A stretch of DNA of 64,000 nucleotides from Parvibacter caecicola. Its GTDB lineage: Bacteria > Actinomycetota > Coriobacteriia > Coriobacteriales > Eggerthellaceae. A model generated the notes under the pieces. It was not told the DNA's origin and did not search any database. It saw only the letters and a program-made list of their open reading frames with translations. Within the stretch, counting starts at the first letter, position 1, and the number at the start of each line of letters is the position of its first letter. The stretch is from assembly GCF_003725335.1 (NCBI RefSeq), contig NZ_QIBY01000007.1, forward strand, positions 50,719 to 114,718, written 5' to 3'. The translations under genes and the position numbers were made by a program. Shown piece after piece: positions 31,003-58,196 of this stretch.

Positions 31003-34000
31003 ATGCAGTTCAAGTTCAAGATACAGCCATACCAAACGGCTGCAGCAGACGCGGTGACCGCTGTGTTCGAGGGTCAGCGAAGAGTTGAGCTGCTGTCGTA
31101 TATGCGCGACATCGGCAAAGTCAGACTTAAGGAATCGCTCCGGCAGAAGAGCGCCGGTCAATTTAGCCTTGGTGCGGAATTGTCGGAGTCCATGGGCTAC
31201 GGCAACGCGCCGCTCTCCATCAATGCGCAGGAGCTTCTGCGCAATATCAACCGTGTGCAATCACGAAACCAGCTGGAAGAGTCGTTGGAGCTGTCCTGCG
31301 ACATCGGAGCCTGCCAGCTGGATGTGGAGATGGAAACTGGTACCGGTAAGACCTATGTCTACACCAAGACCATGTTCGAGCTCAACCGCCTCTACGGATG
31401 GACGAAGTTCATCATCGTGGTACCTTCCATCGCCATCCGCGAGGGCGTAAACAAGAGCCTCCAGAGCACCGAGCAGCACTTCTTCGAGCAATACGAGCGC
31501 TCGATCCGCTACTTCATCTACGACTCCGACAGGTTGAACGAGTTGGATGCATACTCGCAGAGCGCTGACATCAACGTAATGATCATCAACATGCAGGCAT
31601 TCAACTCCTCCATGAAGGAGGGAGCCAACAATAAGGCGGCCCGCATCATCTTCGACGAGCGAGACGACTTCGGGAGCCGCCGCCCCATCGACGTCATAGC
31701 AGCCAACAACCCCATCGTCATCGTCGACGAGCCCCAGAAGATGGGCAAGAAGAACTCTGCCACCTGGAAGGGCATCGAGCGGTTCAATCCGCTGTTCGTG
31801 CTGAACTACTCGGCGACCCACCGTGAGAAGCACAACATGGTGTACGCGCTGGACGCCCTGGACGCATTTAACGAGAAGCTGGTCAAGCGCATTGAAGTGA
31901 AGGGCTTCGAGCTCAAGAACATGCGCGGCACCGACGGCTACCTCTATCTCAAGGACATCATCGTCTCCAAGAACAAGGCCCCTGTGGCCGTGGTCGAGTT
32001 CAAGGCAATGTCGGCCGGAGGCAAGGTGGTCAAGAAGACCATGCGCTTCAACGAAGGCGACAGCATCTACGACGCCACCGGGGACATCCGCCTTGAGGCC
32101 TACCGCGACTACGTGATCGCGTCGGGCAACGACGGCATCGTGCCCGATCAGGACGGTCGCATCGGCTACGTACGGTTCCTCAACGGCGAGGTGCTCCAAC
32201 GAGGCGTGGTTTACGGCGACTCGGCCGAGGACGACATGCGCCGCGTGCAGATCCGAGAGACCATCGCCTCCCACCTACAGAAGGAGGAGGCTCTCTTCTA
32301 CCGAGGCATCAAGTGCCTATCGCTCTTCTTCATAGACGAGGTGGCAAAGTACAGGGACATCTCCGGCAACGGGGAGACCGTGGGCTACGGCAAGGTTTTC
32401 GAGGAGGAGTACGAGCGCGCCGTCGAGGAGCGCCTCTCCAACCCGACCCTAGACGACGAGCGCGAGCGAGCCTACCTCGACTACCTGAGGCGCGATACGG
32501 CGCATGCCGTACACTCCGGCTACTTCAGCATCGACAAGAAGGGCAATGCGATCGAGAGCTCCGAGAAGAAGGCCGAGCAGACAGACGGTTTGGGCGCGAA
32601 TGACGAGAACGCCCAGCGCGCCTACGATCTGATCCTGAAGGACAAGGAGCGACTGCTCTCCTTTGAGGAGCCTGTGCGGTTCATCTTCAGTCACTCTGCC
32701 CTTCGCGAAGGATGGGACAACCCGAACATCTTCCAGATCTGCACGCTCAAGAGCTCCGGTTCCGAGACCGGCAAGCGCCAGGAGGTGGGACGAGGACTGC
32801 GCCTCTGCGTGGACCAGAAGGGCGAGCGTCAGGACGCAATGTATCTGGGCACCCGCGACGTGCACAATGTGAACGTGCTCACCGTAGTGGCTTCCGAGAG
32901 CTACTCGTCGTTCGTGGACGCCCTGCAGAAGGACATCAAGGCGGAGCTTCGCGACCGCCCGACCGTCGTAGAGATGGACTTCTTCGCAGGACGCCAGGTC
33001 ACACTTCCCAACACTGGCGAGACCGTGACGTTCAGTGAGCGCGAGTCCAAGGAGCTCTACAAGTGCCTCATCAAGGGCGACTTCCTCGACGACAACGACC
33101 GCCCGTCGTGTAAGTTCCGCGAGGGAGGCTTCTTCGAGTATGCCATCGTGAATCTGCCCGAGGACATGCGCGAGGAGCCGAAGCTCCAAGCCGCCGAGCT
33201 GCTCGTAAGGAGCGCCTACGATCCGAGCGCGCTCTCCGCCATGATCACCGACGGCAATGTACCCAAGATCACGAGAAACGCGCTCAACGACAACTACTAC
33301 AGGCGCGAGTTCCAGGAGCTCTGGAAGAGGATAAACAAGAAACACGCCTACACGGTGTCGTTCGACGACGAGGAACTAATCCGAAAGGCTGTGACTGCAA
33401 TCGATGCGAACCTTCAGGTGAGCGAGCTGTCCTACACGATCACTACGGGAACTCAAAAAGAAACTGCGAAGCGCGAGGACATAGAGGACAGGACTCACTT
33501 CAAGACCAAGAGCGCGGAAAGCAGGGCACTTGAGCTTGACGAACGCATTGACGTCACCTATGACCTAGTCGGTGAGGTGGCTCAAGCGGCCAAGGTCACG
33601 CGACGCACAGCAGCGACTATCCTCTCGCGCATTAGCCCCTTAAAGTACTCTCTCTACAAGCGGAACCCTGAGGAGTTCATCAAGAAGGCCAGCTCCATCA
33701 TCGTGGACGAGAAGGCGACAACGGTCATCGACCATGTCTCTTACCACCAAATCGACGAGGAGTTCGACACCAACATCTTCACCGAGCGCATGCCTGAAAA
33801 CATTTCCAAGGCACTCAAGGCCCAGAAGAACATCCAGGATTACGTGTTCTTCGACAGCCAGAAGGAAAAGGAGTTCGCTGAAGCGATGGATGTAGCCACC
33901 GAAGTCTGTGTCTATGCCAAGATGCCGCGTACATTCACGATACCGACACCTGTTGGCGAGTACGCACCCGACTGGGCGATTGCCTTCAACGAGGGTGCTG

Positions 34001-34185
34001 TCCGGCACATCTACTTCATTGCGGAGACCAAGGGCACCATGGATTCGATGGAATTGAGCACGGTGGAGCAGACGAAGATCGCGTGCGCTAAGAAGGTTTT
34101 CAACGAGCTATCGACCTCGCAAGTTCGATACCACGAAGTATCTACCTATGATGAGCTGCTCACAGTAATCCAAGGAGTGGAGTAG
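31003..34185 (+). CDS. res: Type III restriction Res-like subunit (DEAD/DEAH helicase plus C-terminal PD-(D/E)xK nuclease)
   Basis: Walker A METGTGKT, IVIVDEPQ, and C-terminal PDWAIAF...IYFIAETKG. Its ATG immediately follows the mod stop. Confidence 0.85.
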   Translation: MQFKFKIQPYQTAAADAVTAVFEGQRRVELLSYMRDIGKVRLKESLRQKSAGQFSLGAELSESMGYGNAPLSINAQELLRNINRVQSRNQLEESLELSCDIGACQLDVEMETGTGKTYVYTKTMFELNRLYGWTKFIIVVPSIAIREGVNKSLQSTEQHFFEQYERSIRYFIYDSDRLNELDAYSQSADINVMIINMQAFNSSMKEGANNKAARIIFDERDDFGSRRPIDVIAANNPIVIVDEPQKMGKKNSATWKGIERFNPLFVLNYSATHREKHNMVYALDALDAFNEKLVKRIEVKGFELKNMRGTDGYLYLKDIIVSKNKAPVAVVEFKAMSAGGKVVKKTMRFNEGDSIYDATGDIRLEAYRDYVIASGNDGIVPDQDGRIGYVRFLNGEVLQRGVVYGDSAEDDMRRVQIRETIASHLQKEEALFYRGIKCLSLFFIDEVAKYRDISGNGETVGYGKVFEEEYERAVEERLSNPTLDDERERAYLDYLRRDTAHAVHSGYFSIDKKGNAIESSEKKAEQTDGLGANDENAQRAYDLILKDKERLLSFEEPVRFIFSHSALREGWDNPNIFQICTLKSSGSETGKRQEVGRGLRLCVDQKGERQDAMYLGTRDVHNVNVLTVVASESYSSFVDALQKDIKAELRDRPTVVEMDFFAGRQVTLPNTGETVTFSERESKELYKCLIKGDFLDDNDRPSCKFREGGFFEYAIVNLPEDMREEPKLQAAELLVRSAYDPSALSAMITDGNVPKITRNALNDNYYRREFQELWKRINKKHAYTVSFDDEELIRKAVTAIDANLQVSELSYTITTGTQKETAKREDIEDRTHFKTKSAESRALELDERIDVTYDLVGEVAQAAKVTRRTAATILSRISPLKYSLYKRNPEEFIKKASSIIVDEKATTVIDHVSYHQIDEEFDTNIFTERMPENISKALKAQKNIQDYVFFDSQKEKEFAEAMDVATEVCVYAKMPRTFTIPTPVGEYAPDWAIAFNEGAVRHIYFIAETKGTMDSMELSTVEQTKIACAKKVFNELSTSQVRYHEVSTYDELLTVIQGVE

Positions 34186-34186
34186 C

Positions 34187-35419
34187 GTGGAGTGCTTCAA
34201 CGGAAACAGCTCGTACAGTATCTTCGAGAACCTAAAAGCACGCCTTAAGGAAGATATATCTGAGTTAAAAGCTGAAGAGTTGGATAGCACTGACAGGGAT
34301 GCCTGGGTGGACTATTGGGAAAACGAATACTATTGCCCTCCTGTTGAGCTTTATCCCGACAACGCTGAGCTTGGCCTGACCCAACAATCGGTTCAGCAAT
34401 ACAATAGCTGGCATCATGCTGCATGGGACGAGCCCGAATACTTTGAAGTTGAAGGCGCTAGGGCAACCTGCAAGGTCCCATATTCCGGGACCCCGTGGTT
34501 CTTTAAGATGCAGCCGTCAACCTTCACGCTTTCAGGCCATTATGCCGAGAAGGTCACCGATCCAGGATCAGATGGTTTTGGTTACATTACCTTTGCCCTA
34601 GAAACCCCACTCGGTAGCGCCACGCCCGAGGGAATACGAAAGTTCTTTTCGGATCAAATAGAAGACTTCTCCGAGCAAATTGAGTGCTGCAACAAGGACG
34701 CGGAAAGCTACAACAATTCTCTTAGGCAAATCATCGAAGCAGCTTTAGACAAAAGGATTGAGCAACTTGATAAGTTCGCTTCCCTTCGACGAGGACTGAA
34801 TCTTCCCTTAAATCGCGTAAAAGATGCTCCTTTGGCCATGCCTCTTCACTTACAAAAGAAGACCCTGAAAGTTTCAAGGCCTGAAAAGATCCCAAGCGCC
34901 GAGCAATCCTACTCTATTGATGACGCAACATACAAACACATAACAGATGTAATAGAAAGCTCCGGAGCCATGATGGAGAGAGCTCCCGAGGCTTACAACG
35001 GCATGGAAGAAGAGCATCTAAGGGATGTGCTATTGAGCGCCCTGAATACTCATTACCAAGACCAAGTGAACGGCGAGGCTTTTCGCAGACATGGAAAGAC
35101 GGACATTCAGATTCCCGTCAACAATCATGCTGCGTACATCGCGGAATGCAAGCTGTGGAAGGGGCCAAAGGCTTTCAAGGACGCGCTCGCACAACTGTTC
35201 TCATATACGACGTGGCGCGACACCAAGGTATCCGTAATCGTATTCAATAAGAAGAACAAAAACTACGAGAAAGTGCTCGACGCAATTGACGAAGTTTTGG
35301 AGGGAGAATCGATTACTTGCGATCGACACAAGCACTCTCAGTGGCTTTGCAAAATACAGAACGAAGAAGATGAAAGGATTATGCACGTAACGGTCCAGGT
35401 TTTCGATTTGTCCTTATAG
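34187..35419 (+). CDS. Hypothetical protein with C-terminal PD-(D/E)xK-like motif
   Basis: GTG start 1 nt after the res stop. TDIQIP...IAECKLWKG fits D...ExK. No other recognised domain. Confidence 0.5.
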   Translation: MECFNGNSSYSIFENLKARLKEDISELKAEELDSTDRDAWVDYWENEYYCPPVELYPDNAELGLTQQSVQQYNSWHHAAWDEPEYFEVEGARATCKVPYSGTPWFFKMQPSTFTLSGHYAEKVTDPGSDGFGYITFALETPLGSATPEGIRKFFSDQIEDFSEQIECCNKDAESYNNSLRQIIEAALDKRIEQLDKFASLRRGLNLPLNRVKDAPLAMPLHLQKKTLKVSRPEKIPSAEQSYSIDDATYKHITDVIESSGAMMERAPEAYNGMEEEHLRDVLLSALNTHYQDQVNGEAFRRHGKTDIQIPVNNHAAYIAECKLWKGPKAFKDALAQLFSYTTWRDTKVSVIVFNKKNKNYEKVLDAIDEVLEGESITCDRHKHSQWLCKIQNEEDERIMHVTVQVFDLSL

Positions 35420-35572
35420 GCAGCGACCGAACAGTGGCATTAGCGGAGGCGCAACGCTACGTCGATGAACGCGCAGATCAAGCGCTTGTTGGATCTATCA
35501 CGAGCGCGAACTTGAGGATGCTGTCCAGACTCTTGCACGCAACGCTATCTCAACTCGAATCGACGCCCGCAA

Positions 35573-37120
35573 CTAAACTGAGGCCAGCATGTCTTTTCGG
35601 ATAAAACTTATGCCCGCCCGCTTCATTGATCTCCATTGGCCCGATAGGCTTCCTTGTTTCAAAGCTTCATAGCAGAATAGCCAGTAACGATCCATGTCTG
35701 TATTTTTCAGCCTCAGAGCGACTTTATTAAGTGGCTTCACCTGCGTTGCATCTCTTTTCCAGTGATTTTGTTTCATGAAATAAATCCATGTCATGGTCAG
35801 AAGCAGACAATCTTTGCTTTTAATTACGTACTTCTGCGCCTCACAATAATCGCTTTCGAATCCATCGAGTACAAAGCCGAACCTAACGGCAAAATAAATC
35901 GCATAGCACAAGCTTTCGTAGTCGTTTAGCCTGATTGCTTCTTGATATATCGTATCCGAAAATTTTTTGATGTCGCCTATGTCTACTCCATATGGGATAA
36001 AAATATATTCTTCCATTAATTGCAGAAGATATGGGTAGAGGACCGCCATATGCATGAATCGCTTTGCTGCCAGCCTTTTCCCATTATTGGAAAGATCTAA
36101 TCCTTTCAACTTCTTAATGGCGTAATTAATTATTGCGAAGTCATCCAATTCCATTGCCAGCTTTAACGCTGTATCAATGAACGTGTTGACTTGCGGGTAT
36201 TCAACCATACCTGACTCACCCACTTTGGGCAAATCGCTCAATTGGTGCTTCCAGTCTTTCTCTGCGCCAATAGGAAGCTCGATGATCCGTGTCTTCTTGT
36301 GATTCAGAAGCAAATCGAATTCGCGAAGCGCCTCTTCGAGGTTTTTGAGGAACCGCTGCCCTTCATCAAAACTAGATACGTAACAACTATAATCATCTAC
36401 ATTCCTAACATAGCGATAACCATTATCGTAGAGCTCCTTGTCTATGGTCGTCAAAATTATCTCTGAAATTAGGTTTGACGCATGGGGCCCAATGAGAAGC
36501 CCATGTGTTTCACCATTACGCATATCTGAACATGCCTTATCAATCCTGTTGTACCAAATATCATCGTGAATTGTTCTTTTCGCTACTTCTTTTCCGACCA
36601 AGGCCCATGGTATCGAATGTGTATAAATACTGGGGAAACACGTGGAGATATCAGCTTTAACAAGGAAACGGCTCACCCCGTTATCGTGCATCAACAAATC
36701 TGATTCCGGATCTCCATCTACTCGCCAGTTCTTGTAAGTCATCTCGAAAATCCGTTTTTCATTGCGCTTTTTACGGATATGGATTCGACTAACACAATAA
36801 CTTTGTCCATCTGTCTGTGCGCGAAAATGAGCGCGTATCTCATCCCAGTCATTTGCAAGTTCACGACATACTCTTTGGTACTTGAAAGGATTAGGGATGC
36901 CCATAAGGCGCGGCACACCGATATTACGCATTGCCCGAAAAGTTATATATTCATTCCAGGTTGCTTCAAATGAATTAGATGCCGTTTTGCAGTAATCGAA
37001 GAAAGGAACAGCAGTAAACACCGGAGGAAGCTTTTCAGGAAAAAACCCATACGCAAGAAAACCCTCATACAGTTCGTCAGAGGATATTTCATCCAAAAAA
37101 TCTATATAACACCTATCCAC
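35573..37120 (-). CDS. Reverse transcriptase, defence/Abi-type, with about 200-aa C-terminal extension
   Basis: RT motifs 2 (KADISTCFPSIYTHSIPWAL), 4 (GLLIGPHASNLISEIIL), 5 (YVRNVDDYSCYV) and 6 (LLLNHKKTRII). AT-rich gene. Confidence 0.8.
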   Translation of the reverse strand: MDRCYIDFLDEISSDELYEGFLAYGFFPEKLPPVFTAVPFFDYCKTASNSFEATWNEYITFRAMRNIGVPRLMGIPNPFKYQRVCRELANDWDEIRAHFRAQTDGQSYCVSRIHIRKKRNEKRIFEMTYKNWRVDGDPESDLLMHDNGVSRFLVKADISTCFPSIYTHSIPWALVGKEVAKRTIHDDIWYNRIDKACSDMRNGETHGLLIGPHASNLISEIILTTIDKELYDNGYRYVRNVDDYSCYVSSFDEGQRFLKNLEEALREFDLLLNHKKTRIIELPIGAEKDWKHQLSDLPKVGESGMVEYPQVNTFIDTALKLAMELDDFAIINYAIKKLKGLDLSNNGKRLAAKRFMHMAVLYPYLLQLMEEYIFIPYGVDIGDIKKFSDTIYQEAIRLNDYESLCYAIYFAVRFGFVLDGFESDYCEAQKYVIKSKDCLLLTMTWIYFMKQNHWKRDATQVKPLNKVALRLKNTDMDRYWLFCYEALKQGSLSGQWRSMKRAGISFIRKDMLASV

Positions 37121-37150
37121 TGATAAGCTAACTCCTTATTTACGGTAAAT

Positions 37151-37171
37151 CTACTCCCACTCAACCGCATC
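37151..37171 (-). other. Remnant copy of the guaA 3' end (encodes ...AVEWE-stop); candidate att core of an integrative element
   Basis: The reverse complement of CTACTCCCACTCAACCGCATC reads DAVEWE*. It is homologous to the guaA terminus at 56604 and to the copy at 44801. Confidence 0.5.
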
Positions 37172-37254
37172 AAGCAGCCCTTTTTGTATTATGGGCACTA
37201 TCATTTCCATCTCGTGCTTCATCGTCCAACTCTTGTGCTCTGGTTTCAGTATCG

Positions 37255-37512
37255 TTTTGAACTCACTTCAAAGAAGTCGAGAAGGACTTAAATCCTGGAA
37301 TAAAACCAAGGAGCAGATCCTGGTTCTCTGAACTGGGATTTTATTATATCCGGGAATGTTTTGAGTTCAGGATTCCGGGTACATCGTCTCGAACCCTCGA
37401 AAATTTACGCGACAGGAATAGTTCAGGAATAAACACAACCCTTGGGAGTAAATCGCTGACCAGCAGAAATGTGAAACCCTGAGTTCAAAGTGAGTTCAAA
37501 TTGAGTTCAGGG
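37255..37512. repeat. Cluster of TGAGTTCAAA-type direct and inverted repeats (three tandem copies at 37480-37512, others at 37361 and 37258); candidate integrase arm-type sites
   Basis: Repeats seen directly in the sequence, adjacent to the 37151 att-like copy. Confidence 0.45.
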
Positions 37513-37573
37513 AACGTGAGGGCAATTACGGGCAAGCCAGCCGCTACTAGTCCTGTTGGCCTGAATGAGATAA

Positions 37574-38142
37574 TTGAAGCCTGATGTCCCGAGTGGCTTC
37601 TCGCATCAGAAGCAAACGTCGGAGACGCCGAATACAGCTCCCGGAGGATCAAAAGGCATGAACCATAGCAACGACCGCTACATCACGAACACATTGAGGC
37701 GTCGGGGGCGCGTTTGCAATGTTCTCCTCGGGTTGGCTTTGGTGATTCTGCTATCGTCCATTTTCACGTCCCCGCCGAGGTGCCGCTGCAGTGGGGAGCT
37801 GACGGTGATGTTGATGCTTATGGGTCTCCATGGCTGACGCTCATCGTGTGGGCCGTCCTTGCCGCCGTCGTCGCTTTGCGCAGGCTCGTCGTTGCAAATG
37901 TTGACGTGCGGTACTGGAACAAGCCGCCTAAAATACAACCATCTGAATTGGACGATTGGTATGCCCACAGCATGAGTGTCACGTACAACGTGTGCTTGAT
38001 GATTTCCGTTGTGGCTCTGGGAGTGGCATTGATCTATATGCTTCGCATCTATTGGCTAATGTTTCCCTTCATCGTCATAGCCGCTCTAGCTGTGATCGCG
38101 TACAGCGTATATGCAAACTCTAATCGGAGCAAAGACTCCTAG
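37574..38142 (+). pseudogene. DUF1648/SdpI-like membrane protein gene with a frameshift near 37740-37770
   Basis: The N-terminal TM helix (NVLLGLALVILLSS) is in frame 2. The DUF1648 core (IVHFHVPAEVPLQWGADGDVDAYGSPW) plus the C-terminal TMs are in frame 1 (ORF 37714..38142). Confidence 0.5.
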
Positions 38143-38151
38143 CCATCAGCA

Positions 38152-38183
38152 AGACCTACGTGGACAAATTGTCCACGTAGGTA
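38152..38183. repeat. Perfect 14-bp inverted repeat ACCTACGTGGACAA / TTGTCCACGTAGGT (hairpin or operator)
   Basis: Seen directly, between the DUF1648 pseudogene and the toxin-antitoxin promoter. Confidence 0.5.
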
Positions 38184-38212
38184 TGACCTGGTGTTTCTTC
38201 TGCAAAACTAAA

Positions 38213-38253
38213 TTGATATTGACTAAGTGTATATCATAGTATACAATCTGTGT
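38213..38253 (+). promoter_or_regulatory. Sigma-70-like promoter (TTGACT-17-TACAAT) overlapping the TGTATA..TATACA palindrome upstream of the toxin gene
   Basis: -35 TTGACT at 38219-24 and -10 TACAAT at 38242-47. The ATG at 38254 lacks an SD, so the mRNA may be leaderless. Confidence 0.5.
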
Positions 38254-38553
38254 ATGTTGGAGATTCTGCAGACAGATGAATTCATCAAATGGATGAAGCG
38301 GCTTCGAAATGCCGATGCTAGAGCGCGCATCAACGTGCGAATCCGCAGGATCTCGCTCACGGGGAACTTCGGCGATACGAAGCCCGTCGGTGACGGAGTC
38401 TACGAGCTGCGCATCGACTACGGACCCGGGTACCGCGTGTACTACTCCCAACACAGAAGCGAGGTTGTCCTGCTGCTCATCGGCGGGGACAAGTCCTCGC
38501 AGCAGAAGGACATCGACAAGGCCAAAAGACTCAATGCGGAATACGAAGGATAG
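38254..38553 (+). CDS. Type II toxin, RelE/ParE superfamily (HigB-like addiction-module killer protein)
   Basis: MLEILQTDEFIKWMKRL...GVYELRIDYGPGYRVYY...LLLIGGDKSSQQKDI, typical of the addiction-module killer family. Confidence 0.72.
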   Translation: MLEILQTDEFIKWMKRLRNADARARINVRIRRISLTGNFGDTKPVGDGVYELRIDYGPGYRVYYSQHRSEVVLLLIGGDKSSQQKDIDKAKRLNAEYEG

Positions 38554-38562
38554 AGGACGATC

Positions 38563-38844
38563 ATGAAGACGGCTACGAAATGGGATGCCTCCGAATACTT
38601 GGAGACCGAAGAGGACATGGCGGCCTACTTGAACGCCGCGCTCGAGGATGGCGACACCTCCGTGGTTGCCGCCGCCCTCGGCGATATCGCACGAGCAAAG
38701 GGAATGACCCAACTCTCCAAGGAGACCGGTATCACCAGAGACGGGCTCTACAAGGCATTGTCTCCTACAGGGAACCCGTCGTTTGATACGGTGCAAAAAG
38801 TCGTTAAAGCGTTTGGGCTTAAGCTTGATGTTGCTACTGCGTGA
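38563..38844 (+). CDS. HigA-family antitoxin (HTH addiction-module antidote protein)
   Basis: 93 aa reading ...AAALGDIARAKGMTQLSKETGITRDGLYKAL. It lies 9 nt after the toxin stop. Confidence 0.72.
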   Translation: MKTATKWDASEYLETEEDMAAYLNAALEDGDTSVVAAALGDIARAKGMTQLSKETGITRDGLYKALSPTGNPSFDTVQKVVKAFGLKLDVATA

Positions 38845-38938
38845 ATGTAACAACAACGCGCAACACTAGCTCTTGGATTTATGTCTCAGACGGGATCCAC
38901 ATATGGAAACAGCTCTTGGAGAAAAGGATTAATTCTGG

Positions 38939-41900
38939 ATGGAAGTAGCCTCGACGCTTGTCTCACTTGCCAGCAAATTAGGCCTGTCAAGCTTATTGGA
39001 TAAAGTCAAAAAATGTAAAAAGAACAGGAAGCTACATCAGATTCGAGAAGATTATCTAACTAGGTCTACATTTGTATCATTCCAACAAGCGCCTCTTTCA
39101 GATTTATTTCAAAATAATGCTTTGTGCGAAGAGCTAATTGCCCATTGTCGCAAAGGCGACTTAGCAAAATCCGCAGTAGTTAATACTTTTCTTTACTCTT
39201 CAAAAGAGGCCCCCTCCGAAGGGCGCTTCTTTGATGCGGAAAAGCTTGTAGGTAATTTTTTTGATGAAGTGGCTGCCGTAATATTCCAGCCAATTGACAA
39301 AAAAGACGAACCCCTTTCTGCAGCGATACAAGAAGGCATCGCCGAAACCAGAGAACTTCAGTCTGACGTTCAGCAGAGCTATAAACAAATGGAAGCGAAG
39401 GTTGATGCTCTAACGGCATCTTTGACAGAGCAACTTGGCTTCTCTTCGCTGACGTTACTCATAAATGCAGTAGAAGACGGGTCGGTTTTGTTTGCCGATT
39501 TCGAATCTGCAGTTGAGACCGATAAAAGTAATAGTGTTTCAGGCAAATATCTTTCTGTATACCTCTCTCTATGTAAAGGTGAAAACCCATGCTTTGATAT
39601 ATCGGACTTCAAGGTCATTGGAACTCCTCTTGCTTCCTCACTGGCTTCGTTGGCAATTTCGACAGGGCAATTGAACACCGCCGTCTGCGTTCTTGGCCTC
39701 TATGACGAAGGAGCCAATTGCGCTAAGGCTGTTGGGGAGATTATTAATAATCCAAATATCGATGAAGAAACGAATCGATATGAGATTGCCGCAGATTCCC
39801 CTTTCTCGCCTTTTGCATGCGTTTTGAATGCCGAGCTCGCATTCATGAACAAAGCCTACGTAATTGCAGACGATCAATTCGCATTGTGCGAAGGGCGACT
39901 TAATCCAGTAGCAAAATGTCATAGTGACATTTCACGCATATGCAAAGCAATGCAGTATTCATTGACTTCTATTTCTCCTGATGACGTAAGGAACTTTGCC
40001 GGGGATTTCCCACTGTGGGGTAGCACATCGCTAAAACATGAATATGGAGAAATCCTTGAAGTTGCTCTTGATCTGATTGGCGAAACAAGTGCAGCGGAAA
40101 TCATTTCGTCTCTTCCTGAGGAAGCGCTGCAACACTTGCCAAACGCACAGCTTCAAGCAGAGATAAGCACGTGCGACGATATCGATAGATTGAGACACTT
40201 ATGCGAAAAGTCGTTGATAAAGCAGCTTTTCCCTGCATTCTTTACATGCGCAGAAGAACTTATATCCAAAGATCCCTCTTGCACGTTGTGGTTAAAACAA
40301 CTGGTAGAGAAGGAGGCTGAGAATGTTTTGGTCAGCAACTTTCTTTTCTTCCTCTTCTATGTCGATAAATTGAATCCATGCGTCTCTTATGAAGAGTACA
40401 AGTACCATGAAAGCTGTTACAGAAATGACCCTCGATTTCATCTGCATGCATACAGGCTGTTTAAGAGCAGCAACCCCGAAGAGGCCTGCAGCCATATCGA
40501 AATGGCACTAAGTCTAATGGCCGCAGGGCAGACATTACCGTGCCCAGACTATTCGAGAGAATGGGTTTGCTATCTTCATGAAAACGAACGTGACTTTCAG
40601 GTGATCGACCTAGTCAGACGATTCGCACCCGTAATTCCCGCAAGGGCTTTCAAGTCAATCGCATTTGCTATAGAAGAACCGTTAGATAAATCGGTTCTCG
40701 CAAGAGAGCTCTTCGAGTTGCTGGAGCAATCGGAGAACGATGATCCGGAGCTGACATGCTTGCTTGCGCAGTATCATGGATTTGTTGCAAATGATCAGCT
40801 TAAAGCGCTCAAGTTCGCAAAGCTATCCTTCAAAAAGCGCCCCTCTCTCGACGCAGCACGGTCCCTGGTTTATGCATCACTTGGCTTATCGTTAGGCATC
40901 CCCGAAGAAGTTGAGCAGTATGCTCTCAATCAAAAGAGCACAGAGCTCGACATGCTCATCGCCGAGCATTACCGGAGAGAGAAAAAGGACTCAAAAGCAG
41001 ATTATCTTTTAAAGCGAGCTATTTTTGATAATAGACCAGACTCCCACCGCGCAATTGCCGCATACGGCTGCAGCCATTTGAGCGATGCCGAGAAAGAGAA
41101 ACCAACTAAGATTGACCACAATACCTGCGCATGCTTGGAAAACAAGGAATCGGGACAGCTGGTCGTAGCTTTTCACTCGGAATCTGATTTGATTCCGAGT
41201 GAAGGAGTTAATGCTCTCGGGATGCAGAACTACACAACAGCATCTCCCCAATATCTTGCAATGCGAGATCATGCCGTTGGAGATCGCGTGCAACTTGGCT
41301 CAGAGTACTGGGAAGTTGTAGACGTAAACAACGTAGATGACGTCATCGGAAAAAAGACCATGGAGATAATCGCAGAAGACCCCTCAACGGTGGTCTTCTC
41401 TTCCCCTGATGGAGACATCGAAGATGTGATTCGGCAAATCTCTGAATACATGGAAGAGCACAAACAGCAGAGCAACGTTTATTCTGACGGCATTCGAGTT
41501 AACGATGGCACAGTTGTTTTTCTGGGGATCGAGACAGGGTGTGCGCTCTACCCCATCAAGCCATTTGAGTTTATCCTAAATGTGCTCAAAGGGGATGATG
41601 TCCCATTTCGGAGAATAGAAATAGGCTTTTCTTCTCCCATGACAGGGGAAGAGACGTTTCTTCTCTCTTATAATGCCATCGTTCTTCTGGCTGCTCTTGA
41701 AGAGCTAGGCGTCGACTGTGACCCAATCATGAGTCGTTGCAGCATTACCACATCAACGAAAAAACGTCTGCAGCTAGACATTCAAGATTATTCTGATTCG
41801 TTATACGGCGCTGGGAAAATGGTTTCAGTCGATGGACGCGCCACTCTATTGCAGTATGACGCTGCAGCCAAGCAAGAACTGAGCGCAATTTGCGCAAATA

Positions 41901-42280
41901 CATTAGGCTTTCTTAACAAATTGAGACAAGTTGAACTTGCTCAGATCGATAAGCTTCCTTCAAGTTTCCCGTTTCTTGACCAGAATACGCTAGGCGACAT
42001 GGAAACGGCAAGACAAGGTGGGATGTTTTATGTGACAGAAGACTGTTTTCAGGCGCTTTTCTCTGATATTTCCGAATCCGCCCCTCAGAGATGCAGTCTG
42101 TACAGTCTTCTTATTGCACTCGGAATGAGGGAAGCCGCCCTGTTTGCACTTCCGAAAGCAATGCACCAGTGGGGAGCCGATCCGTATGTTGATGTCAATG
42201 TTGCTAACGTGGTAATTCAGATTCTTGAGTCGTTTACGCAAGGCGCCGGAAGCCCCATACCAAATGAACAAGATACGTAA
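38939..42280 (+). CDS. Large hypothetical protein (1113 aa), AT-rich, predicted alpha-helical
   Basis: Long uninterrupted ORF at about 42% GC in a high-GC genome. No Walker A motif and no recognisable catalytic motif. Confidence 0.5.
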   Translation: MEVASTLVSLASKLGLSSLLDKVKKCKKNRKLHQIREDYLTRSTFVSFQQAPLSDLFQNNALCEELIAHCRKGDLAKSAVVNTFLYSSKEAPSEGRFFDAEKLVGNFFDEVAAVIFQPIDKKDEPLSAAIQEGIAETRELQSDVQQSYKQMEAKVDALTASLTEQLGFSSLTLLINAVEDGSVLFADFESAVETDKSNSVSGKYLSVYLSLCKGENPCFDISDFKVIGTPLASSLASLAISTGQLNTAVCVLGLYDEGANCAKAVGEIINNPNIDEETNRYEIAADSPFSPFACVLNAELAFMNKAYVIADDQFALCEGRLNPVAKCHSDISRICKAMQYSLTSISPDDVRNFAGDFPLWGSTSLKHEYGEILEVALDLIGETSAAEIISSLPEEALQHLPNAQLQAEISTCDDIDRLRHLCEKSLIKQLFPAFFTCAEELISKDPSCTLWLKQLVEKEAENVLVSNFLFFLFYVDKLNPCVSYEEYKYHESCYRNDPRFHLHAYRLFKSSNPEEACSHIEMALSLMAAGQTLPCPDYSREWVCYLHENERDFQVIDLVRRFAPVIPARAFKSIAFAIEEPLDKSVLARELFELLEQSENDDPELTCLLAQYHGFVANDQLKALKFAKLSFKKRPSLDAARSLVYASLGLSLGIPEEVEQYALNQKSTELDMLIAEHYRREKKDSKADYLLKRAIFDNRPDSHRAIAAYGCSHLSDAEKEKPTKIDHNTCACLENKESGQLVVAFHSESDLIPSEGVNALGMQNYTTASPQYLAMRDHAVGDRVQLGSEYWEVVDVNNVDDVIGKKTMEIIAEDPSTVVFSSPDGDIEDVIRQISEYMEEHKQQSNVYSDGIRVNDGTVVFLGIETGCALYPIKPFEFILNVLKGDDVPFRRIEIGFSSPMTGEETFLLSYNAIVLLAALEELGVDCDPIMSRCSITTSTKKRLQLDIQDYSDSLYGAGKMVSVDGRATLLQYDAAAKQELSAICANTLGFLNKLRQVELAQIDKLPSSFPFLDQNTLGDMETARQGGMFYVTEDCFQALFSDISESAPQRCSLYSLLIALGMREAALFALPKAMHQWGADPYVDVNVANVVIQILESFTQGAGSPIPNEQDT

Positions 42281-42360
42281 CGGTGTCATAAGTCATTCCT
42301 TATAGCTTCTCTATAAGTCATCCTTCTCTTCGCACAGTCCGACGCGTGAAAGGAGAAGCC

Positions 42361-42450
42361 ATGACAGCATACAAAGACGAGAAGCGCGGGACCTGGTTCG
42401 CGAACTTCAGGTACAAGGACTGGAGGGGTGAACCTCAGCGAAAGGGGTAA
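42361..42450 (+). pseudogene. Tyrosine integrase N-terminal remnant (29 codons) truncated at the IS256-family insertion
   Basis: MTAYKDEKRGTWFANFRYKDWRGEPQRKG aligns with the N-terminus of the intact integrase at 48249 (SKDRERGTFYVQCRYKDWTGEPKKK). The stop lies inside the IS inverted repeat. Good SD. Confidence 0.6.
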
Positions 42451-43780: not shown

Positions 43781-43887
43781 AGAATCTAGATCGATAAGGG
43801 CTCAAGTTGACAATTCTCCAATAAAGTTTCTGAATGTCTACATGGTACCGCAGGCTGGAATCCGTACGGAGTAATTTCAAAATGCTC

Positions 43888-44800: not shown

Positions 44801-44823
44801 CTATTCCCACTCGATGGCGTATC
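44801..44823 (-). other. Remnant copy of the guaA 3' end (encodes ...YAIEWE-stop); candidate att core marking the left end of the guaA-proximal element
   Basis: The reverse complement of CTATTCCCACTCGATGGCGTATC reads YAIEWE*. It matches the guaA terminus at 56604-56624 at 15 of 18 positions. Confidence 0.55.
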
Positions 44824-44948
44824 TTTGTCTTTCGTTTCAATAGATGCGTTAGCAGATCATCTCGTTTACCGTATATATCTAAATTACATCAAACGTGGTA
44901 CTCATAGAGCACTCAGGGGCACTTCTTGCTCTGCAAAGAAGCGTTTTT

Positions 44949-47370: not shown

Positions 47371-47376
47371 TAATTC

Positions 47377-47865: not shown

Positions 47866-47892
47866 AGACAGAGACCCTTCTCATGACGTAAG

Positions 47893-48043: not shown

Positions 48044-48259
48044 ATGGGAACAAGGCTAATGAGTGCAACGGAGGTCGCGGAGCAGCTGGGCACCTCCAAG
48101 GCGTACGCCTACAAGGTGATTCGCAAGCTTAATGCGGAACTGGCGAAGAAAGGGTGCCTAATCGTCCAGGGAAAAGTGAGCCGAATGTATTTTGAGGAGC
48201 GCTACTTTGCTGGCGAACCAATGCCAGCACCCGAGCAAGGAGCCAGCAATGTCCGTTAG
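48044..48259 (+). CDS. xis: Excisionase-family / MerR-like small DNA-binding protein
   Basis: 71 aa reading MSATEVAEQLGTSKAYAYKVIRKLNAEL. Immediately upstream of, and overlapping, the integrase. Confidence 0.6.
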   Translation: MGTRLMSATEVAEQLGTSKAYAYKVIRKLNAELAKKGCLIVQGKVSRMYFEERYFAGEPMPAPEQGASNVR

Positions 48260-49364
48260 CAAAGATCGTGAACGCGGAACGTTCTACGTCCAGTGCCGCT
48301 ATAAAGACTGGACGGGCGAACCCAAGAAGAAGACCAAGCGCGGCTTCAAGACGGAGAAGGAGGCGCGCAAGTGGGAGTACGAGTTCCTGAAGCGCATGGA
48401 GGGCGCACCGACAATGCTCTTCTCCGAGTTCTATCAGGTGTACGCCGCGGACGTGAAGCCCCGTCTGCGCAGGAACACCTGGGAGAGCAAGGCGCACATG
48501 ATCGAGACGAAGATCCTGCCCTATCTCGGCAACAAGCGCGTGAACGAGATCTCGTCGCTCGACATCCTCAACTGGGAGAACGAGCTGCTCGCAATGCGCA
48601 CGTGCAACGGGCTGGAATACTCGCAGACCTATCTCCATTCGATCTGCAATCAACTCTCGGCCATGCTCAATCACGCCGTTCGCTACTACGGCCTCACGGT
48701 GAACCCGATGGCCAAGGTCGGCAAGATAGGCAGCAAGCAGGCTGACGAGATGAGCTTCTGGACGAAAGACGAGTACCTAAGGTTCAGCAGGGCGATGATG
48801 GACAAACCGCAATCCTTCATAGCCTTCGAGATTCTCTACTGGTGCGGACTGCGCCTCGGCGAGTTGCTCGCGCTCACGCCAGAGGATTTCGACTTCGAGG
48901 CTAAGAGGCTGTCGATCACCAAGAGCTACCAGCGCATGCACGGCGAGGACGTCATCACGGCACCGAAGACGCCCAAGTCCGCCCGCTCGATCGTCATGCC
49001 AGAGTTCCTCGTTGGTGAAGTTATCGACTTCATGAGGTGCATCCCCGACCTTCGAAACGACGACCGCCTGATTCCCGTCACCAAGTCCTTCTTGCACCAT
49101 GAGATGGATCGCGGCGCGAAGGCAGCCGGAGTCAAGCGCATTCGGATTCACGATCTGCGACACAGTCATGTGTCGCTTCTGATCGAACTCGGCTATTCCG
49201 CTCTCGCGATTGCCGACAGGCTGGGTCACGAGAGCACCGAGGTGACCATGCGTTACGCGCACCTCTTCCCAAATAAGCAAGAGGACATGGCTTGCGACCT
49301 TGACGTCCAAAGAGGCAGTGCGGAATCCCCATTCGATATGGCAAGACCCATGAAACAGGCCTAG
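48249..49364 (+). CDS. int: Tyrosine-type site-specific integrase
   Basis: N-terminal arm-binding-type domain, and C-terminal catalytic R...HDLRHSHVSLL...RYAHL with the tyrosine. SD AGGAG. Confidence 0.9.
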   Translation: MSVSKDRERGTFYVQCRYKDWTGEPKKKTKRGFKTEKEARKWEYEFLKRMEGAPTMLFSEFYQVYAADVKPRLRRNTWESKAHMIETKILPYLGNKRVNEISSLDILNWENELLAMRTCNGLEYSQTYLHSICNQLSAMLNHAVRYYGLTVNPMAKVGKIGSKQADEMSFWTKDEYLRFSRAMMDKPQSFIAFEILYWCGLRLGELLALTPEDFDFEAKRLSITKSYQRMHGEDVITAPKTPKSARSIVMPEFLVGEVIDFMRCIPDLRNDDRLIPVTKSFLHHEMDRGAKAAGVKRIRIHDLRHSHVSLLIELGYSALAIADRLGHESTEVTMRYAHLFPNKQEDMACDLDVQRGSAESPFDMARPMKQA

Positions 49365-49378
49365 GAAAGGAGATCCAG

Positions 49379-56298: not shown

Positions 56299-56365
56299 TT
56301 GAGTACAAGATGAGTACAAATGCGATAAATCGATTCCACTGCTGATAGTTGCGTGAGTACAAAGT
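56299..56365. repeat. Three TGAGTACAA(A/G) direct repeats near the guaA-proximal element end; candidate integrase arm-type sites
   Basis: Copies at 56300, 56311 and 56355, seen directly. The motif is related to the TGAGTTCAAA repeats at 37480-37512. Confidence 0.45.
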
Positions 56366-56603: not shown

Positions 56604-58196
56604 TTATTCCCACTCAATAGTCGCGGGCGGCTTGGAGGTGATGTCGTAGACCACTCGGTTCACGCCGGGGACTTCGGCCACTATGCGGCCGCTTACGCGG
56701 GCCAGCACGTCATAGGGCAGGCGGGCCCAGTCGGCGGTCATGGCGTCGCTGCTCTCCACGGCACGCAGGATCACCGGGCGCGCATAGGTGCGCTCGTCGC
56801 CCATCACGCCCACGCTCTTGATGTCCGGCAGCACCGCGAAGTACTGCCACACGCTATGCTCGCTGTTGCGCTCCCCCGTCTCGGCGAACAGCCGCTCGTT
56901 GTAGGCGTCCAGCTCCTCGCGCACAATCGCGTCGGCGTTCTTCAGAATCTCCAGCTTCTCCGGCGTCACATCCCCAATGATGCGGATGGCCAGCCCCGGC
57001 CCCGGGAACGGCTGGCGATGCACGATGTAGTCCGGCAACCCCAGCGCCGTGCCCAGCGCCCGCACCTCGTCCTTAAAGAAATGATCCAGCGGCTCAATCA
57101 AATCGAAATGCACGCCCTCCGGGAACGGAATAAGGTTGTGGTGGCTCTTGATGGTGCTGGCCTTCCCGCCGGTCTTGCGCGCGCCGCTCTCGATGATGTC
57201 CGGGTAAATGGTGCCCTGGGCCAGATACTTCACGCCGTCCAGCTCCTCGGCCACGGCGAAAAACTCCTTCCAGAACTGCGTGCCGATGATCCGCCGCTTC
57301 TCCTCTGGCTCGGTCACCCCCGCCAGCAGCCGCATATAGCGCTCCTCAGCATGCACGTGAATGAAGTCCACATCGAACTGCTTGGTGAAAACCTCTTCCA
57401 CCTCTTCCGGCTCGCCCTTGCGCAGCAGCCCGTGATTCACGAACACGCACACCAGCTGCTTGCCGATGGCCCGCGCGCACAGCGCCGCCACCACACTGGA
57501 GTCAACGCCGCCGGACAGCCCCAAAATCACGCGGCTCTCCCCCACCTTCGCGCGGATGGCCGCCACCGAATCGTCGATGATGGAATCCATCGTCCAATCG
57601 GACACCAACCCGCAAATGCCGAACAGGAAATTCCTCAGCATGGTCTGGCCGAACTCGGTATGGCGCACCTCCGGATGGAACTGCGTGGCGAACAGTTTGC
57701 GCTCGGGGCACTCCATCGACGCCACCGGGCACACCTCGGTGCGCGACGTGATGGCGAAGCCCTCCGGCACCCGCGTCACCGCGTCGCGATGGCTCATCCA
57801 CACCGTCTGCTCGCCCGGCGTGCCGTCGAACAGCGCCGACTCGGCCGCCCGCATAATCACCGCCGGTCCGTACTCGCCCTTCTCGGTATGGCCCACTTCG
57901 CCCCCCAGAGCTACCGCCATGGCCTGCTGCCCATAGCAAAAGCCCAGCACCGGAATGCCCAGTCGCAGCACCTCGGGGTCGATGGAAGGCGCGTCCTCGG
58001 CGTACACGCTCGCAGGCCCGCCGGACAAAATAATGGCCGCCGGCGCCAGTGCCCGCACCTCATCGGCCGTGATGTCGCAGGGCACAATCTCGGAGTACAC
58101 GTGCAAATCACGCACGCGGCGGGCAATCAACTGCCCGTATTGGGCGCCGAAATCGAAAACGAGGACCTTCTGATCGGGCATAGCGGTTTGGCTCAT
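56604..58196 (-). CDS. guaA: GMP synthase (glutamine-hydrolysing)
   Basis: GATase domain (LVFDFGAQYGQLIARRV...CYGQQ), ATP-PPase SGGVDSSV motif, and C-terminus ...PPATIEWE. Start at MSQTAM with a GGAGGG SD. The ORF extends 36 codons further upstream. Confidence 0.95.
   Translation of the reverse strand: MSQTAMPDQKVLVFDFGAQYGQLIARRVRDLHVYSEIVPCDITADEVRALAPAAIILSGGPASVYAEDAPSIDPEVLRLGIPVLGFCYGQQAMAVALGGEVGHTEKGEYGPAVIMRAAESALFDGTPGEQTVWMSHRDAVTRVPEGFAITSRTEVCPVASMECPERKLFATQFHPEVRHTEFGQTMLRNFLFGICGLVSDWTMDSIIDDSVAAIRAKVGESRVILGLSGGVDSSVVAALCARAIGKQLVCVFVNHGLLRKGEPEEVEEVFTKQFDVDFIHVHAEERYMRLLAGVTEPEEKRRIIGTQFWKEFFAVAEELDGVKYLAQGTIYPDIIESGARKTGGKASTIKSHHNLIPFPEGVHFDLIEPLDHFFKDEVRALGTALGLPDYIVHRQPFPGPGLAIRIIGDVTPEKLEILKNADAIVREELDAYNERLFAETGERNSEHSVWQYFAVLPDIKSVGVMGDERTYARPVILRAVESSDAMTADWARLPYDVLARVSGRIVAEVPGVNRVVYDITSKPPATIEWE

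What the first reader, a model, noticed from the sequence alone, without database searches (positions are those of the whole stretch)
37255..37512. Dense TGAGTTCAAA-type repeat cluster next to the 37.15-kb att-like copy: arm-type sites, or a structured ncRNA
Three tandem copies of TGAGTTCAAA/TGAGTTCAGG lie at 37480-37512, another at 37361-37371, and an inverted copy (TTTTGAACTCA) at 37255-37265. A related motif (TGAGTACAA, three copies) sits near the guaA-proximal junction at 56300-56365. The remnant integrase N-terminus at 42361 is homologous to the arm-binding N-terminus of the intact integrase at 48249. The simplest reading is that these are arm-type binding sites for two related integrases. 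The alternative is that the 37255/37481 inverted pair (about 225 nt apart, upstream of the RT on its strand) are a1/a2-like flanks of an RT-associated ncRNA.
Basis: partly seen in the sequence, partly recalled or inferred. Interest (0 to 1): 0.55.

Follow-up and report, generated by a model that had tools for sequence, protein, structure and literature searches.

The report
Integrase binding-site array at island end
The repeat cluster is the roughly 360-base recombination arm at the end of a decayed mobile island inserted behind the guaA gene, most likely carrying the integrase's accessory ("arm-type") binding sites, and it is not an RNA partner of the neighbouring reverse transcriptase.

Summary
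The repeats are real. Five of the nine TGAGTTCA copies in the 64-kb window lie within 37258-37509, where about 1.6 are expected for the whole window.

They belong to a discrete 360-nt element, 37510->37151 on the minus strand. Its last 12 nt, GAGTGGGAGTAG, copy the 3' end of guaA (…IEWE*, 56604-56615). A third core copy sits at 44801-44812. So guaA is followed by three islands in tandem.

About 40 full-length copies of the element occur in gut metagenomes and in Adlercreutzia faecimuris. Homology always starts at the first tandem repeat and stops at the core.

Three observations point to a protein-DNA complex:
- The variable base of TGWACTCA switches A<->T together in four of the five sites, including direct copies that cannot pair with each other.
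- Spacers vary in steps of about 10-11 bp.
- No conserved or unusually stable RNA fold exists.

The adjacent RT is DRT4, which needs no ncRNA. DRT4 homologues do not share the upstream region.

The intact neighbouring island encodes xis and an integrase with an arm-binding domain. The same motif is the only repeat shared by both of its arms.

Verdict: this is the P arm of an attR with probable arm-type sites. It is an ordinary kind of feature and a new member of that kind.

The parts
37151..37512 (-). Complete conserved att arm (P arm plus core) of the decayed island 2. It is the attR-type junction between island 2 and the DRT4-bearing island 3.
   Evidence: An nhmmer profile of the arm matches window 37510-37151 over its full length, hmm 1-367, E = 5.6e-82. 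About 40 further full-length copies occur in other loci. Homology to L183, L159, L113 and L160 runs 37509->37144/37153 at about 85% identity and stops there.
37151..37162 (-). Core copy GAGTGGGAGTAG. It mimics the guaA 3' end (E-W-E-stop) and is the probable crossover region.
   Evidence: Pattern search. L080 shares 92% identity with the window from 31003 up to 37165 only, that is up to the core. L094 shares the other side, 38075->37150.
37480..37511 (-). Three tandem TGAACTCA sites (M1 sites 1-3) in 11-bp register. They are the distal arm-type sites.
   Evidence: The sites are invariant blocks in the 19-arm alignment.
37362..37369 (-). M1 site 4 (TGAACTCA), in the same orientation as sites 1-3.
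   Evidence: Spacing from site 3 to site 4 is 118, 107 or 94 nt in different arms.
37255..37268 (+). M1 site 5, inverted relative to sites 1-4. On the minus strand it reads AAGTGAGTTCAAAA, followed by the conserved CGATACTG. It lies 104 nt from the core.
   Evidence: The distance to the core is 102-105 or 113-114 nt in all arms.
37415..37452 (-). Second conserved motif (M2). On the minus strand: TTTACTCC(C) at 37452-37444, TTTATTCC at 37433-37426 and CTATTCC at 37421-37415. It is a candidate site for an accessory protein such as Xis/RDF or a host bending factor.
   Evidence: Invariant columns in alignment A2. The same TTTACTCCC word is repeated in the guaA-proximal arm of L148. The binding partner is unknown.
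37297..37305 (-). Fourth M2 copy. On the minus strand it reads TTTTATTCC.
37315..37341 (+). Terminator-like hairpin inside the arm, followed by a T-rich tract on the + strand. Other arm lineages keep a hairpin here with a different sequence, but one lineage lacks it.
   Evidence: The terminator scan finds 12 pairs. Per-lineage folds show the hairpin is more stable on this strand in the window, L084, L097 and L056 lineages, and absent in the L164/L173/L089a lineage.
44801..44812 (-). Core copy GAGTGGGAATAG, the junction between island 1 and island 2.
   Evidence: Island 1 ends exactly here in other genomes (L206, L209, L210, L212), which carry a different sequence after the core.
44898..44915 (-). 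Short P arm of island 1: TGAGTGC and TGAGTAC, 11 bp apart and about 90-100 nt from the core. They have the same inverted orientation and position as M1 site 5.
56300..56361 (-). Three TGTACTCA sites (T-variant of M1) in the guaA-proximal (P') arm of island 1, 243-297 nt after the guaA stop.
   Evidence: The sites are present at the same positions in every copy of island 1 that includes this end (L205, L207, L208, L209).
56604..56615 (-). End of guaA (…ATTGAGTGGGAATAA, IEWE*), the attL core.
48044..49364 (+). xis (71 aa, 48044-48259) and the intact tyrosine integrase (371 aa, 48249-49364) of island 1.
   Evidence: Pfam Arm-DNA-bind_4 6.9e-14, Phage_int_SAM_3 and Phage_integrase. Gene calls in L205-L212. 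The ORF translation carries an excisionase-like HTH. The integrase is 45-47% identical to the integrases of guaA-integrating phage phi3626 and of phiMMP02 and phiCD505.
42361..42444 (+). N-terminal remnant of island 2's own integrase. It is cut off by an IS256-family element whose transposase lies at 42563-43723 (+).
   Evidence: tblastn. Pfam Transposase_mut 1.5e-109.
35573..37120 (-). DRT4 reverse transcriptase, the first gene of island 3. It is not functionally tied to the repeats. Its start codon is 30 nt beyond the core.
   Evidence: PADLOC Drt4 1.3e-202. NCBIfam Drt4 9e-111, though its score of 371 bits is below that model's curated cut-off of 450. Homology to other DRT4 loci begins at the start codon.

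Best explanation
The cluster is the P arm of an attR-type junction.

guaA lies on the minus strand and stops at 56604. A family of tyrosine integrases targets its last 12-17 bp. Three islands have accumulated behind it, separated by core copies at 56604, 44801 and 37151.

The 360 nt from 37510 down to 37151 are the distal recombination arm of the middle island, island 2 (37.16-44.8 kb). That island's own integrase has been truncated by an IS256-family insertion.

The five TGAACTCA copies are most likely arm-type sites. Three are in tandem with an 11-bp phase, one more is direct, and one is inverted about 104 bp from the core. By analogy with lambda Int, the N-terminal arm-binding domain of the integrase would hold these sites while its catalytic domains hold the core. 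The intervening DNA would be bent by accessory proteins. The conserved TTTAYWCC/TATTCC words are candidate sites for those proteins.

The neighbouring intact island 1 uses the TGTACTCA variant.

Shown here: the element's boundaries, its copies elsewhere, recombination breakpoints exactly at the core, concerted change of the sites, and helically phased spacing.

Inferred: which protein binds which motif, and whether island 2 can still be moved in trans.
For: 1. Three direct core copies, all on the guaA strand.

2. Breakpoints fall at the core. L080 shares only the DRT4 side up to 37165. L094 shares only the arm side down to 37150. In other loci the same downstream flanks are joined to different arm types.

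3. The arm is a discrete unit. About 40 full-length copies match the nhmmer profile over hmm 1/2-365/367, and homology starts at the first tandem repeat.

4. Invariant alignment columns fall mainly in the repeat words, while the spacers vary.

5. The W of TGWACTCA is A at all five sites in the A-type arms. In T-type arms it is T at sites 1, 3, 4 and the inverted site 5. Direct copies cannot pair with each other, so this looks like a change in a protein's specificity.

6. Spacers differ by about 10-11 bp or about 23 bp: 118/107/94 between sites 3 and 4, and 104/114 between site 5 and the core.

7. Island 1 recurs in other genomes with exact core-to-core ends. It carries xis plus an integrase with Arm-DNA-bind_4. 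GTACTCA is the only multi-copy word shared by both of its arms, direct in P' and inverted in P.

8. The integrase is 45-47% identical to the integrase of phage phi3626, which integrates into guaA (PMC3442830). The annotated phi3626 attP core is the same 12-mer, TTATTCCCACTC, which is the reverse complement of GAGTGGGAATAA. It is flanked by repeated AGTACGTTTT words.
Against: - No binding data exist. The TGWACTCA sites could belong to Xis or another accessory protein rather than to the integrase N-domain.
- Island 2's guaA-proximal side, just below 44800, shows no TGAACTCA copies. Presence in both arms is therefore shown only for island 1.
- Island 1's own P arm is short and lacks the distal tandem triplet, so that triplet is not universally required.
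- Most arm copies sit in modules without an integrase gene, so pairing of arm variant with integrase variant could not be tested statistically.
- The A/T switch is essentially one evolutionary event plus one mixed arm (L106).
Confidence: 0.8

Rival explanations
1. The region is an att arm, but the TGWACTCA repeats are bound by the excisionase/RDF or another accessory DNA-bending protein. The integrase's arm-type sites would then be a different word, for example TTTAYWCC.
For: A second conserved repeat family (M2) exists in the same arm. It is abundant in the guaA-proximal arm of L148. RDFs typically bind tandem direct repeats. Island 1 encodes a 71-aa Xis.
Against: In the complete island 1, TGWACTCA-type words are the only repeats shared by both arms, and M2 words are not found there. 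Three phased tandem copies plus inverted copies near the core match the classic arm-type layout known for lambda P'1-3.
Confidence: 0.13
2. The inverted pair 37255/37481 flanks a structured non-coding RNA (retron- or DRT-type) that serves the downstream reverse transcriptase.
For: The region lies upstream of the RT on the RT's strand. RNAalifold pairs tandem copy 3 with the inverted copy over 10 bp, with one position changing on both sides: AU in 12 arms, UA in 5.
Against: - The RT is DRT4, a single-gene, template-independent, protein-primed polymerase that needs no ncRNA (PMC12783706).
- None of 30 DRT4 loci carries the repeat cluster upstream (one has a single chance GAACTCA copy), and DNA homology begins at the start codon. 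The 92%-identical locus L080 lacks the arm.
- Most arm copies sit far from any RT.
- The consensus structure scores only -7 kcal/mol over 377 columns.
- Folding z-scores are -0.55 and -0.88.
- There are no Rfam hits.
- The 'compensatory' change also occurs in direct copies that do not pair.
Confidence: 0.02
3. The tandem repeats are iterons or an origin (oriV or oriT) of the mobilizable island rather than recombination sites.
For: Island 1 encodes an AAA_25 RepA/primase-like protein and a NikA-like relaxosome protein. Short phased direct repeats are typical of iterons.
Against: The arm is always contiguous with the core and ends there. It is retained in modules that have lost all replication and mobilization genes. 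Island 1, which has those genes, lacks the long arm. The sites also occur next to guaA on the other arm.
Confidence: 0.03
4. The repeats are operator sites of a transcription factor that controls DRT4 or the divergently oriented genes.
For: The repeats lie in a 540-bp intergenic region between divergent genes. DRT4's start codon is only 30 nt beyond the core, so its promoter must overlap the junction.
Against: The flanking genes differ among arm copies while the arm is constant. L080 has DRT4 with a different upstream sequence. No sigma-70-like promoter was found in 37000-38200.
Confidence: 0.02

Closest known systems
Lambda-type (heterobivalent) tyrosine integrase att sites with arm-type sites (lambda P1, P2, P'1-P'3; Tn916 Int arm repeats)
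   Same: Multiple copies of a short word lie outside the core, including a phased tandem triplet and an inverted copy. The integrase has a separate N-terminal arm-binding domain (PF14657). A small Xis is encoded next to int. The spacing is helically phased.
   Different: The arm is long, with about 350 bp between the distal triplet and the core. A second conserved repeat family is present. In many copies the arm persists without any integrase gene nearby. Binding was not tested here.
guaA-3'-end-targeting integrases: Clostridium phage phi3626 (Zimmer et al. 2002, cited in PMC3442830) and streptococcal IME integrases of family Tyr_3 (PMC5357655)
   Same: The target is the same, the 3' end of guaA. 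The 12-nt core is identical to the annotated phi3626 attP. The integrases are 45% identical.
   Different: The elements here are small non-phage islands in a high-GC gut bacterium (assembly GCA_014192485.1) and in Adlercreutzia. The repeat word differs: TGWACTCA here against AGTACGTTTT-type in phi3626. No 360-nt arm is annotated for those elements.
[quoted passage not shown]
   Same: Several islands sit head-to-tail at one attB, separated by att cores. Some have decayed and lack an integrase next to an intact relative.
   Different: The target gene and host clade differ. Some metagenomic arrays hold up to three 2.4-3.8-kb integrase-less modules, each with a full-length arm (L113). Whether they move in trans is unknown.
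Retron msr/msd and DRT2/DRT9-type RT-associated ncRNAs
   Same: Only the position upstream of an RT gene and a pair of inverted repeats are shared.
   Different: The RT is a class 1 UG/Abi enzyme (DRT4) that needs no RNA. The region is not conserved with the RT. No conserved structure is present.

Membership tests
att arm with arm-type sites of a heterobivalent tyrosine integrase | A short core identical to the end of the target gene, with homology between independent copies breaking exactly at that core | tested here: met
   Core copies are at 56604, 44801 and 37151. Breakpoints fall at the core in L080, L094, the 19-arm alignment and the ends of island 1.
att arm with arm-type sites of a heterobivalent tyrosine integrase | A repeated word distinct from the core, in several copies and in both orientations, at conserved phased distances from the core | tested here: met
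   Five TGWACTCA sites are present. Spacings are conserved or differ by about 10-11 bp steps.
att arm with arm-type sites of a heterobivalent tyrosine integrase | The same word is present in both arms (P and P') of a complete element | tested here: inconclusive
   The feature is met for the intact island 1: three direct copies in P' and inverted copies in P. It is not seen on the guaA-proximal side of island 2, the island that owns the arm under study. That side may have been lost with the IS-associated decay.
att arm with arm-type sites of a heterobivalent tyrosine integrase | The cognate integrase has an N-terminal arm-binding domain | tested here: met
   PF14657 Arm-DNA-bind_4 scores 6.9e-14 in the island 1 integrase. 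The island 2 remnant is homologous over that domain.
att arm with arm-type sites of a heterobivalent tyrosine integrase | Physical binding of the integrase N-domain to the repeats, and a requirement for them in recombination | not testable with these tools
   This needs EMSA or footprinting and mini-att recombination assays.
RT-associated ncRNA (retron msr/msd, DRT2/DRT9-type) | Sequence or structure conserved upstream of homologous RT genes | tested here: not met
   None of 30 DRT4 loci carries the repeat cluster (one single chance GAACTCA copy in L002). DNA homology starts at the RT start codon. L080 lacks the arm.
RT-associated ncRNA (retron msr/msd, DRT2/DRT9-type) | A conserved, thermodynamically favoured secondary structure supported by covariation | tested here: not met
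   RNAalifold gives -7 kcal/mol and only the repeat/inverted-repeat helix. Folding z-scores are -0.55 and -0.88. There are no Rfam matches.
RT-associated ncRNA (retron msr/msd, DRT2/DRT9-type) | The RT belongs to a family that uses an RNA template or cofactor | tested here: not met
   The RT is DRT4. The literature states that DRT4 needs no ncRNA and synthesises DNA without a template (PMC12783706).
Decayed integrative element in tandem accretion (CIME-like) | Bounded by direct att cores, lacking a functional integrase, and adjacent to a related intact element at the same attB | tested here: met
   Cores are at 44801 and 37151. The integrase is truncated by an IS256-family element. The intact island 1 lies next to it.
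Decayed integrative element in tandem accretion (CIME-like) | Excision or mobilisation in trans by the neighbour's integrase | not testable with these tools
   This would need junction PCR or long-read evidence of excised circles. The A-type versus T-type site difference may prevent cross-recognition.

The most novel reading that the evidence does not exclude
The 360-nt arm plus core may act as a self-sufficient recombination site for small integrase-less gene modules of 2.4-3.8 kb. These modules carry arsenic-related genes, DUF3800, toxin-antitoxin and defence genes. Integrases supplied in trans would capture and reshuffle them behind guaA. That would amount to an integron-like cassette array in gut Coriobacteriia, with arm variants (A-type and T-type) defining compatibility groups.
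Probability: 0.2. Interest if true: 0.6.

Novelty: new member of a known kind. Interest (0 to 1): 0.28.

Why it matters
The result explains a conspicuous repeat cluster as ordinary recombination machinery. It also removes a tempting but wrong link to the adjacent reverse transcriptase.

It gives exact boundaries for three tandem islands behind guaA, two of which carry defence genes:
- island 3 (below 37151): type III R-M, PDC-S54 and DRT4;
- island 2 (37151-44812): a toxin-antitoxin pair and a 1113-aa protein of unknown function;
- island 1 (44812-56604): an intact mobilizable island with Abi_2.

It also defines a conserved arm model with two motif families, phased spacing and two specificity variants. 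That model can be used to delimit similar islands in gut Actinobacteria genomes and metagenomes. It is also a convenient natural system for studying how arm-site specificity co-evolves with an integrase.

Tried and rejected
- **E. coli, phage and plasmid DNA searches with the region:** no match.
- **Rfam, whole window at gathering threshold and local region at E<=1:** nothing.
- **tRNA/tmRNA scan for an att target:** none. The target is guaA.
- **DRT4-linked ncRNA:** rejected.
- **The 236-aa minus-strand ORF at 38146-38856 as a conserved arm-associated protein:** rejected. The real genes are on the plus strand, a Gp49/HigB-like toxin at 38227-38553 and a HigA-like antidote at 38563-38844.
- **Pairing integrase N-termini with A-type or T-type arms:** too few intact integrases sit next to long arms for a test.
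- **IMG/VR scan for the tandem triplet:** four contigs, none with the rest of the arm. The elements do not look like phages.
- **Search for a fourth core or arm, or the native guaA-downstream flank, at the far end of island 3 near 24 kb:** none found. The distal boundary of the array is undefined.
- **Promoter scan of 37000-38200:** no sigma-70-type site.

Full report
**Observation.** The three tandem copies form an 11-bp-period array at 37480-37509 (Tandem Repeats Finder). TGAGTTCA occurs nine times in the 64-kb window against 1.6 expected, and 0 of 100 shuffles reach nine. Five of the nine copies lie in 37258-37509. The related TGAGTACA copies near guaA are real. So are the guaA-like 12-mer at 37151-37162 and the integrase remnant at 42361-42444.

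**Context.** The window is a high-GC chromosome of about 65% GC, with a low-GC stretch from about 24 kb to 56.6 kb. The gene order of L205 identifies it as NCBI assembly GCA_014192485.1, contig JACHYA010000002.1.

guaA lies on the minus strand and ends …PPATIEWE* at 56604. The 12-mer GAGTGGGARTAR occurs on that strand at three places: 56604 (the guaA end), 44801 and 37151. These copies divide the low-GC stretch into three islands.

- **Island 1 (44.8-56.6 kb)** is intact. It encodes a 71-aa Xis and a 371-aa tyrosine integrase with Arm-DNA-bind_4, SAM-like and catalytic domains. It also carries a NikA-like protein, an AAA_25 protein, a resolvase, a Band_7 protein, Abi_2, a cI-like HTH repressor and a 707-aa ATPase-like protein.
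- **Island 2 (37.16-44.8 kb)** keeps only 28 codons of a related integrase, cut by an IS256-family element. It also holds a 1113-aa ORF, a HigB/HigA-like toxin-antitoxin pair at 38227-38844 and a frameshifted DUF1648 gene.
- **Island 3 (below 37151)** starts with DRT4 at 35573-37120 (PADLOC 1.3e-202). PDC-S54 and a type III restriction-modification system follow.

**The repeats belong to a discrete conserved element.** I scanned metagenome contigs for the tandem triplet and searched with an nhmmer profile. This gave about 40 full-length copies of a 350-370-nt element in about 30 loci. One lies in the genome of Adlercreutzia faecimuris (L056, first seen).

In all copies homology begins at the first tandem repeat and ends at the GAGTGGGARTRR core. 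The sequences on either side differ. In the window the element is 37510->37151 on the minus strand (E = 5.6e-82).

Breakpoints fall exactly at the core. L080 is 92% identical to the window from 31003 to 37165 and unrelated beyond that point. L094 is 91% identical from 38075 to 37150 and unrelated beyond that point. The same downstream flanks are found joined to different arm types. Island 1 recurs in other genomes with exact core-to-core ends and different neighbours. This pattern is what site-specific recombination at a shared core produces.

**Anatomy of the arm, read in the guaA direction.**

| Feature | Position or spacing |
|---|---|
| Three TGWACTCA sites | 11-bp phase |
| TTTACWCC word | after the triplet |
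| Two TATTCC words | 11 bp apart |
| Fourth TGWACTCA | 94-118 nt after the third |
| Hairpin of variable sequence | after site 4 |
| Another TTTAYTCC word | after the hairpin |
| Inverted site GTGAGTWCAAAACGATACTG | 103-106 nt after the fourth site |
| Two TGGAC-like words | between the inverted site and the core |
| Core | 102-105 or 113-114 nt after the inverted site |

Invariant alignment columns fall mainly in these words, and the spacers are free to vary.

**DNA-protein complex or RNA?** Three results point to DNA.

1. The variable base of TGWACTCA is A at all five sites in the A-type arms, which include the window's. In T-type arms it is T at sites 1, 3, 4 and the inverted site 5. Direct copies cannot pair with one another. 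Their concerted change therefore indicates a shift in the specificity of one sequence-reading protein. It is not maintenance of a helix. This is also the only 'compensatory' pair that RNAalifold finds.
2. Spacer lengths differ in steps of about 10-11 bp or about 23 bp. The site 3 to site 4 spacing is 118, 107 or 94. The site 5 to core spacing is 104 or 114. That preserves the helical face, as expected in an intasome.
3. The consensus RNA structure over 377 columns is worth only -7 kcal/mol. The window sequence folds no better than shuffles on either strand, with z = -0.55 and -0.88. Rfam finds nothing.

The only local structure is a short hairpin at 37315-37341. It is terminator-like on the + strand and recurs with different sequences in most arm lineages, but not all. 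It probably insulates the island end from incoming transcription.

**No link to the reverse transcriptase.** The RT is DRT4, a class 1 UG/Abi enzyme. DRT4 is reported to act as a single-gene, protein-primed, template-independent polymerase that 'does not require ncRNA' (PMC12783706).

Among 79 DRT4 loci from reference genomes, DNA similarity to the window begins at the start codon. None of the 30 inspected upstream regions carries the repeat cluster, and only L002 has a single chance GAACTCA copy. Conversely, most arm copies have no RT nearby.

**Which protein reads the repeats?** Island 1 is complete and demonstrably mobile. An unbiased k-mer comparison of its two arms shows that GTACTCA is the only multi-copy word they share. 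It occurs three times in direct orientation 243-297 nt after the guaA stop, and once (plus a near-copy 11 bp away) in inverted orientation 90-100 nt before the distal core. That inverted position matches site 5 of the long arm.

The island's integrase has an arm-binding N-domain. It is 45-47% identical to integrases of Clostridium phages phi3626, phiMMP02 and phiCD505. phi3626 integrates into guaA (PMC3442830). Its annotated attP core is the same 12-mer and is flanked by its own short repeats.

These facts make integrase arm-type sites the best reading. I put the att-arm assignment at about 0.9 and the integrase as the binding protein at about 0.7. The overall confidence of 0.8 given for the best explanation is a blend of those two figures. 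The main rival is that the repeats are Xis or accessory-protein sites. The second motif family (TTTAYWCC) has no assigned partner.

**Comparison and novelty.** The feature works like lambda- or Tn916-type arm sites and meets every sequence-level criterion I could test. Presence in both arms is shown only for the sister island, and binding cannot be tested here.

guaA 3'-end targeting is known for phi3626 and for streptococcal IME integrases (PMC5357655). So is tandem accretion of intact and decayed elements.

This particular 360-nt arm is new as a described object, as are its two specificity variants and its frequent persistence in small integrase-less modules. L113 has three arms within 6.6 kb, with ArsP/ArsR/thioredoxin and DUF3800 cargo. 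That leaves open a cassette-like, trans-mobilised system, to which I give about 0.2.

Overall this is a new member of a known kind and of modest interest.

Noticed in passing
window 37121-37165; L080 2247-2290: The DRT4 start codon lies only 30 nt beyond the att core. The shared sequence between the window and L080 begins at the core. DRT4's promoter must therefore overlap the recombination junction or lie in whatever island happens to sit upstream. The stop codon of the core, in TAGATT, could double as a -10 element.
   Followed up: partly
L001 1363-4001; L004 2307-4001; L006 1605-3100; L056 3348-4001: Close and distant DRT4 homologues in Spirochaetaceae, Murdochiella, Bacillota and Adlercreutzia also lie within 0.15-2.6 kb downstream of guaA or of a guaA-like core. 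This DRT4 clade seems to travel recurrently as cargo at the guaA hotspot across phyla.
   Followed up: partly
L113 3105-9701; also L089, L121, L143, L169, L175, L197, L160: These loci hold tandem arrays of two or three full-length arms 2.4-3.8 kb apart with no integrase between them. Cargo includes two ArsP permeases, thioredoxin, ArsR and DUF3800.
   Followed up: partly
window 38146-38856: The 236-aa minus-strand ORF is spurious. The plus strand encodes a Gp49/HigB-like toxin (38227-38553) and a HigA-like antidote (38563-38844). Homologues sit directly next to the arm in L097, L182 and other loci.
   Followed up: yes
window 37520-38142: A higher-GC segment of about 620 bp carries a frameshifted DUF1648 membrane-protein gene. 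It is inserted between the toxin-antitoxin pair and the arm. L094 shares it, but other arm copies lack it.
   Followed up: no
window 47962-48019: Two 23-nt direct repeats, GACATCACAAAWANGTGAKGTTA, lie 35 bp apart between the divergent HTH repressor gene and xis-int of island 1. They are probably operator sites of the cI-like repressor.
   Followed up: no
window 50889-51006: A 50-nt tandem repeat of 2.4 copies lies just upstream of the resolvase gene at 51000-51746 in island 1. Its function is unknown.
   Followed up: no
window about 23600-25200: The low-GC region ends here, but no fourth guaA-like core or arm was found. The distal boundary of island 3 (SNF2-like helicase, type III R-M, PDC-S54, DRT4) is undefined.
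   Followed up: partly
L148 4125-4600: The guaA-proximal arm of another island carries at least five copies of TTTACTCCC/GGGAGTAAA, plus two AAACTCA words 11 bp apart. Its integrase is 58% identical to the window's. This suggests the second motif family of the long arm is also functional.
   Followed up: no
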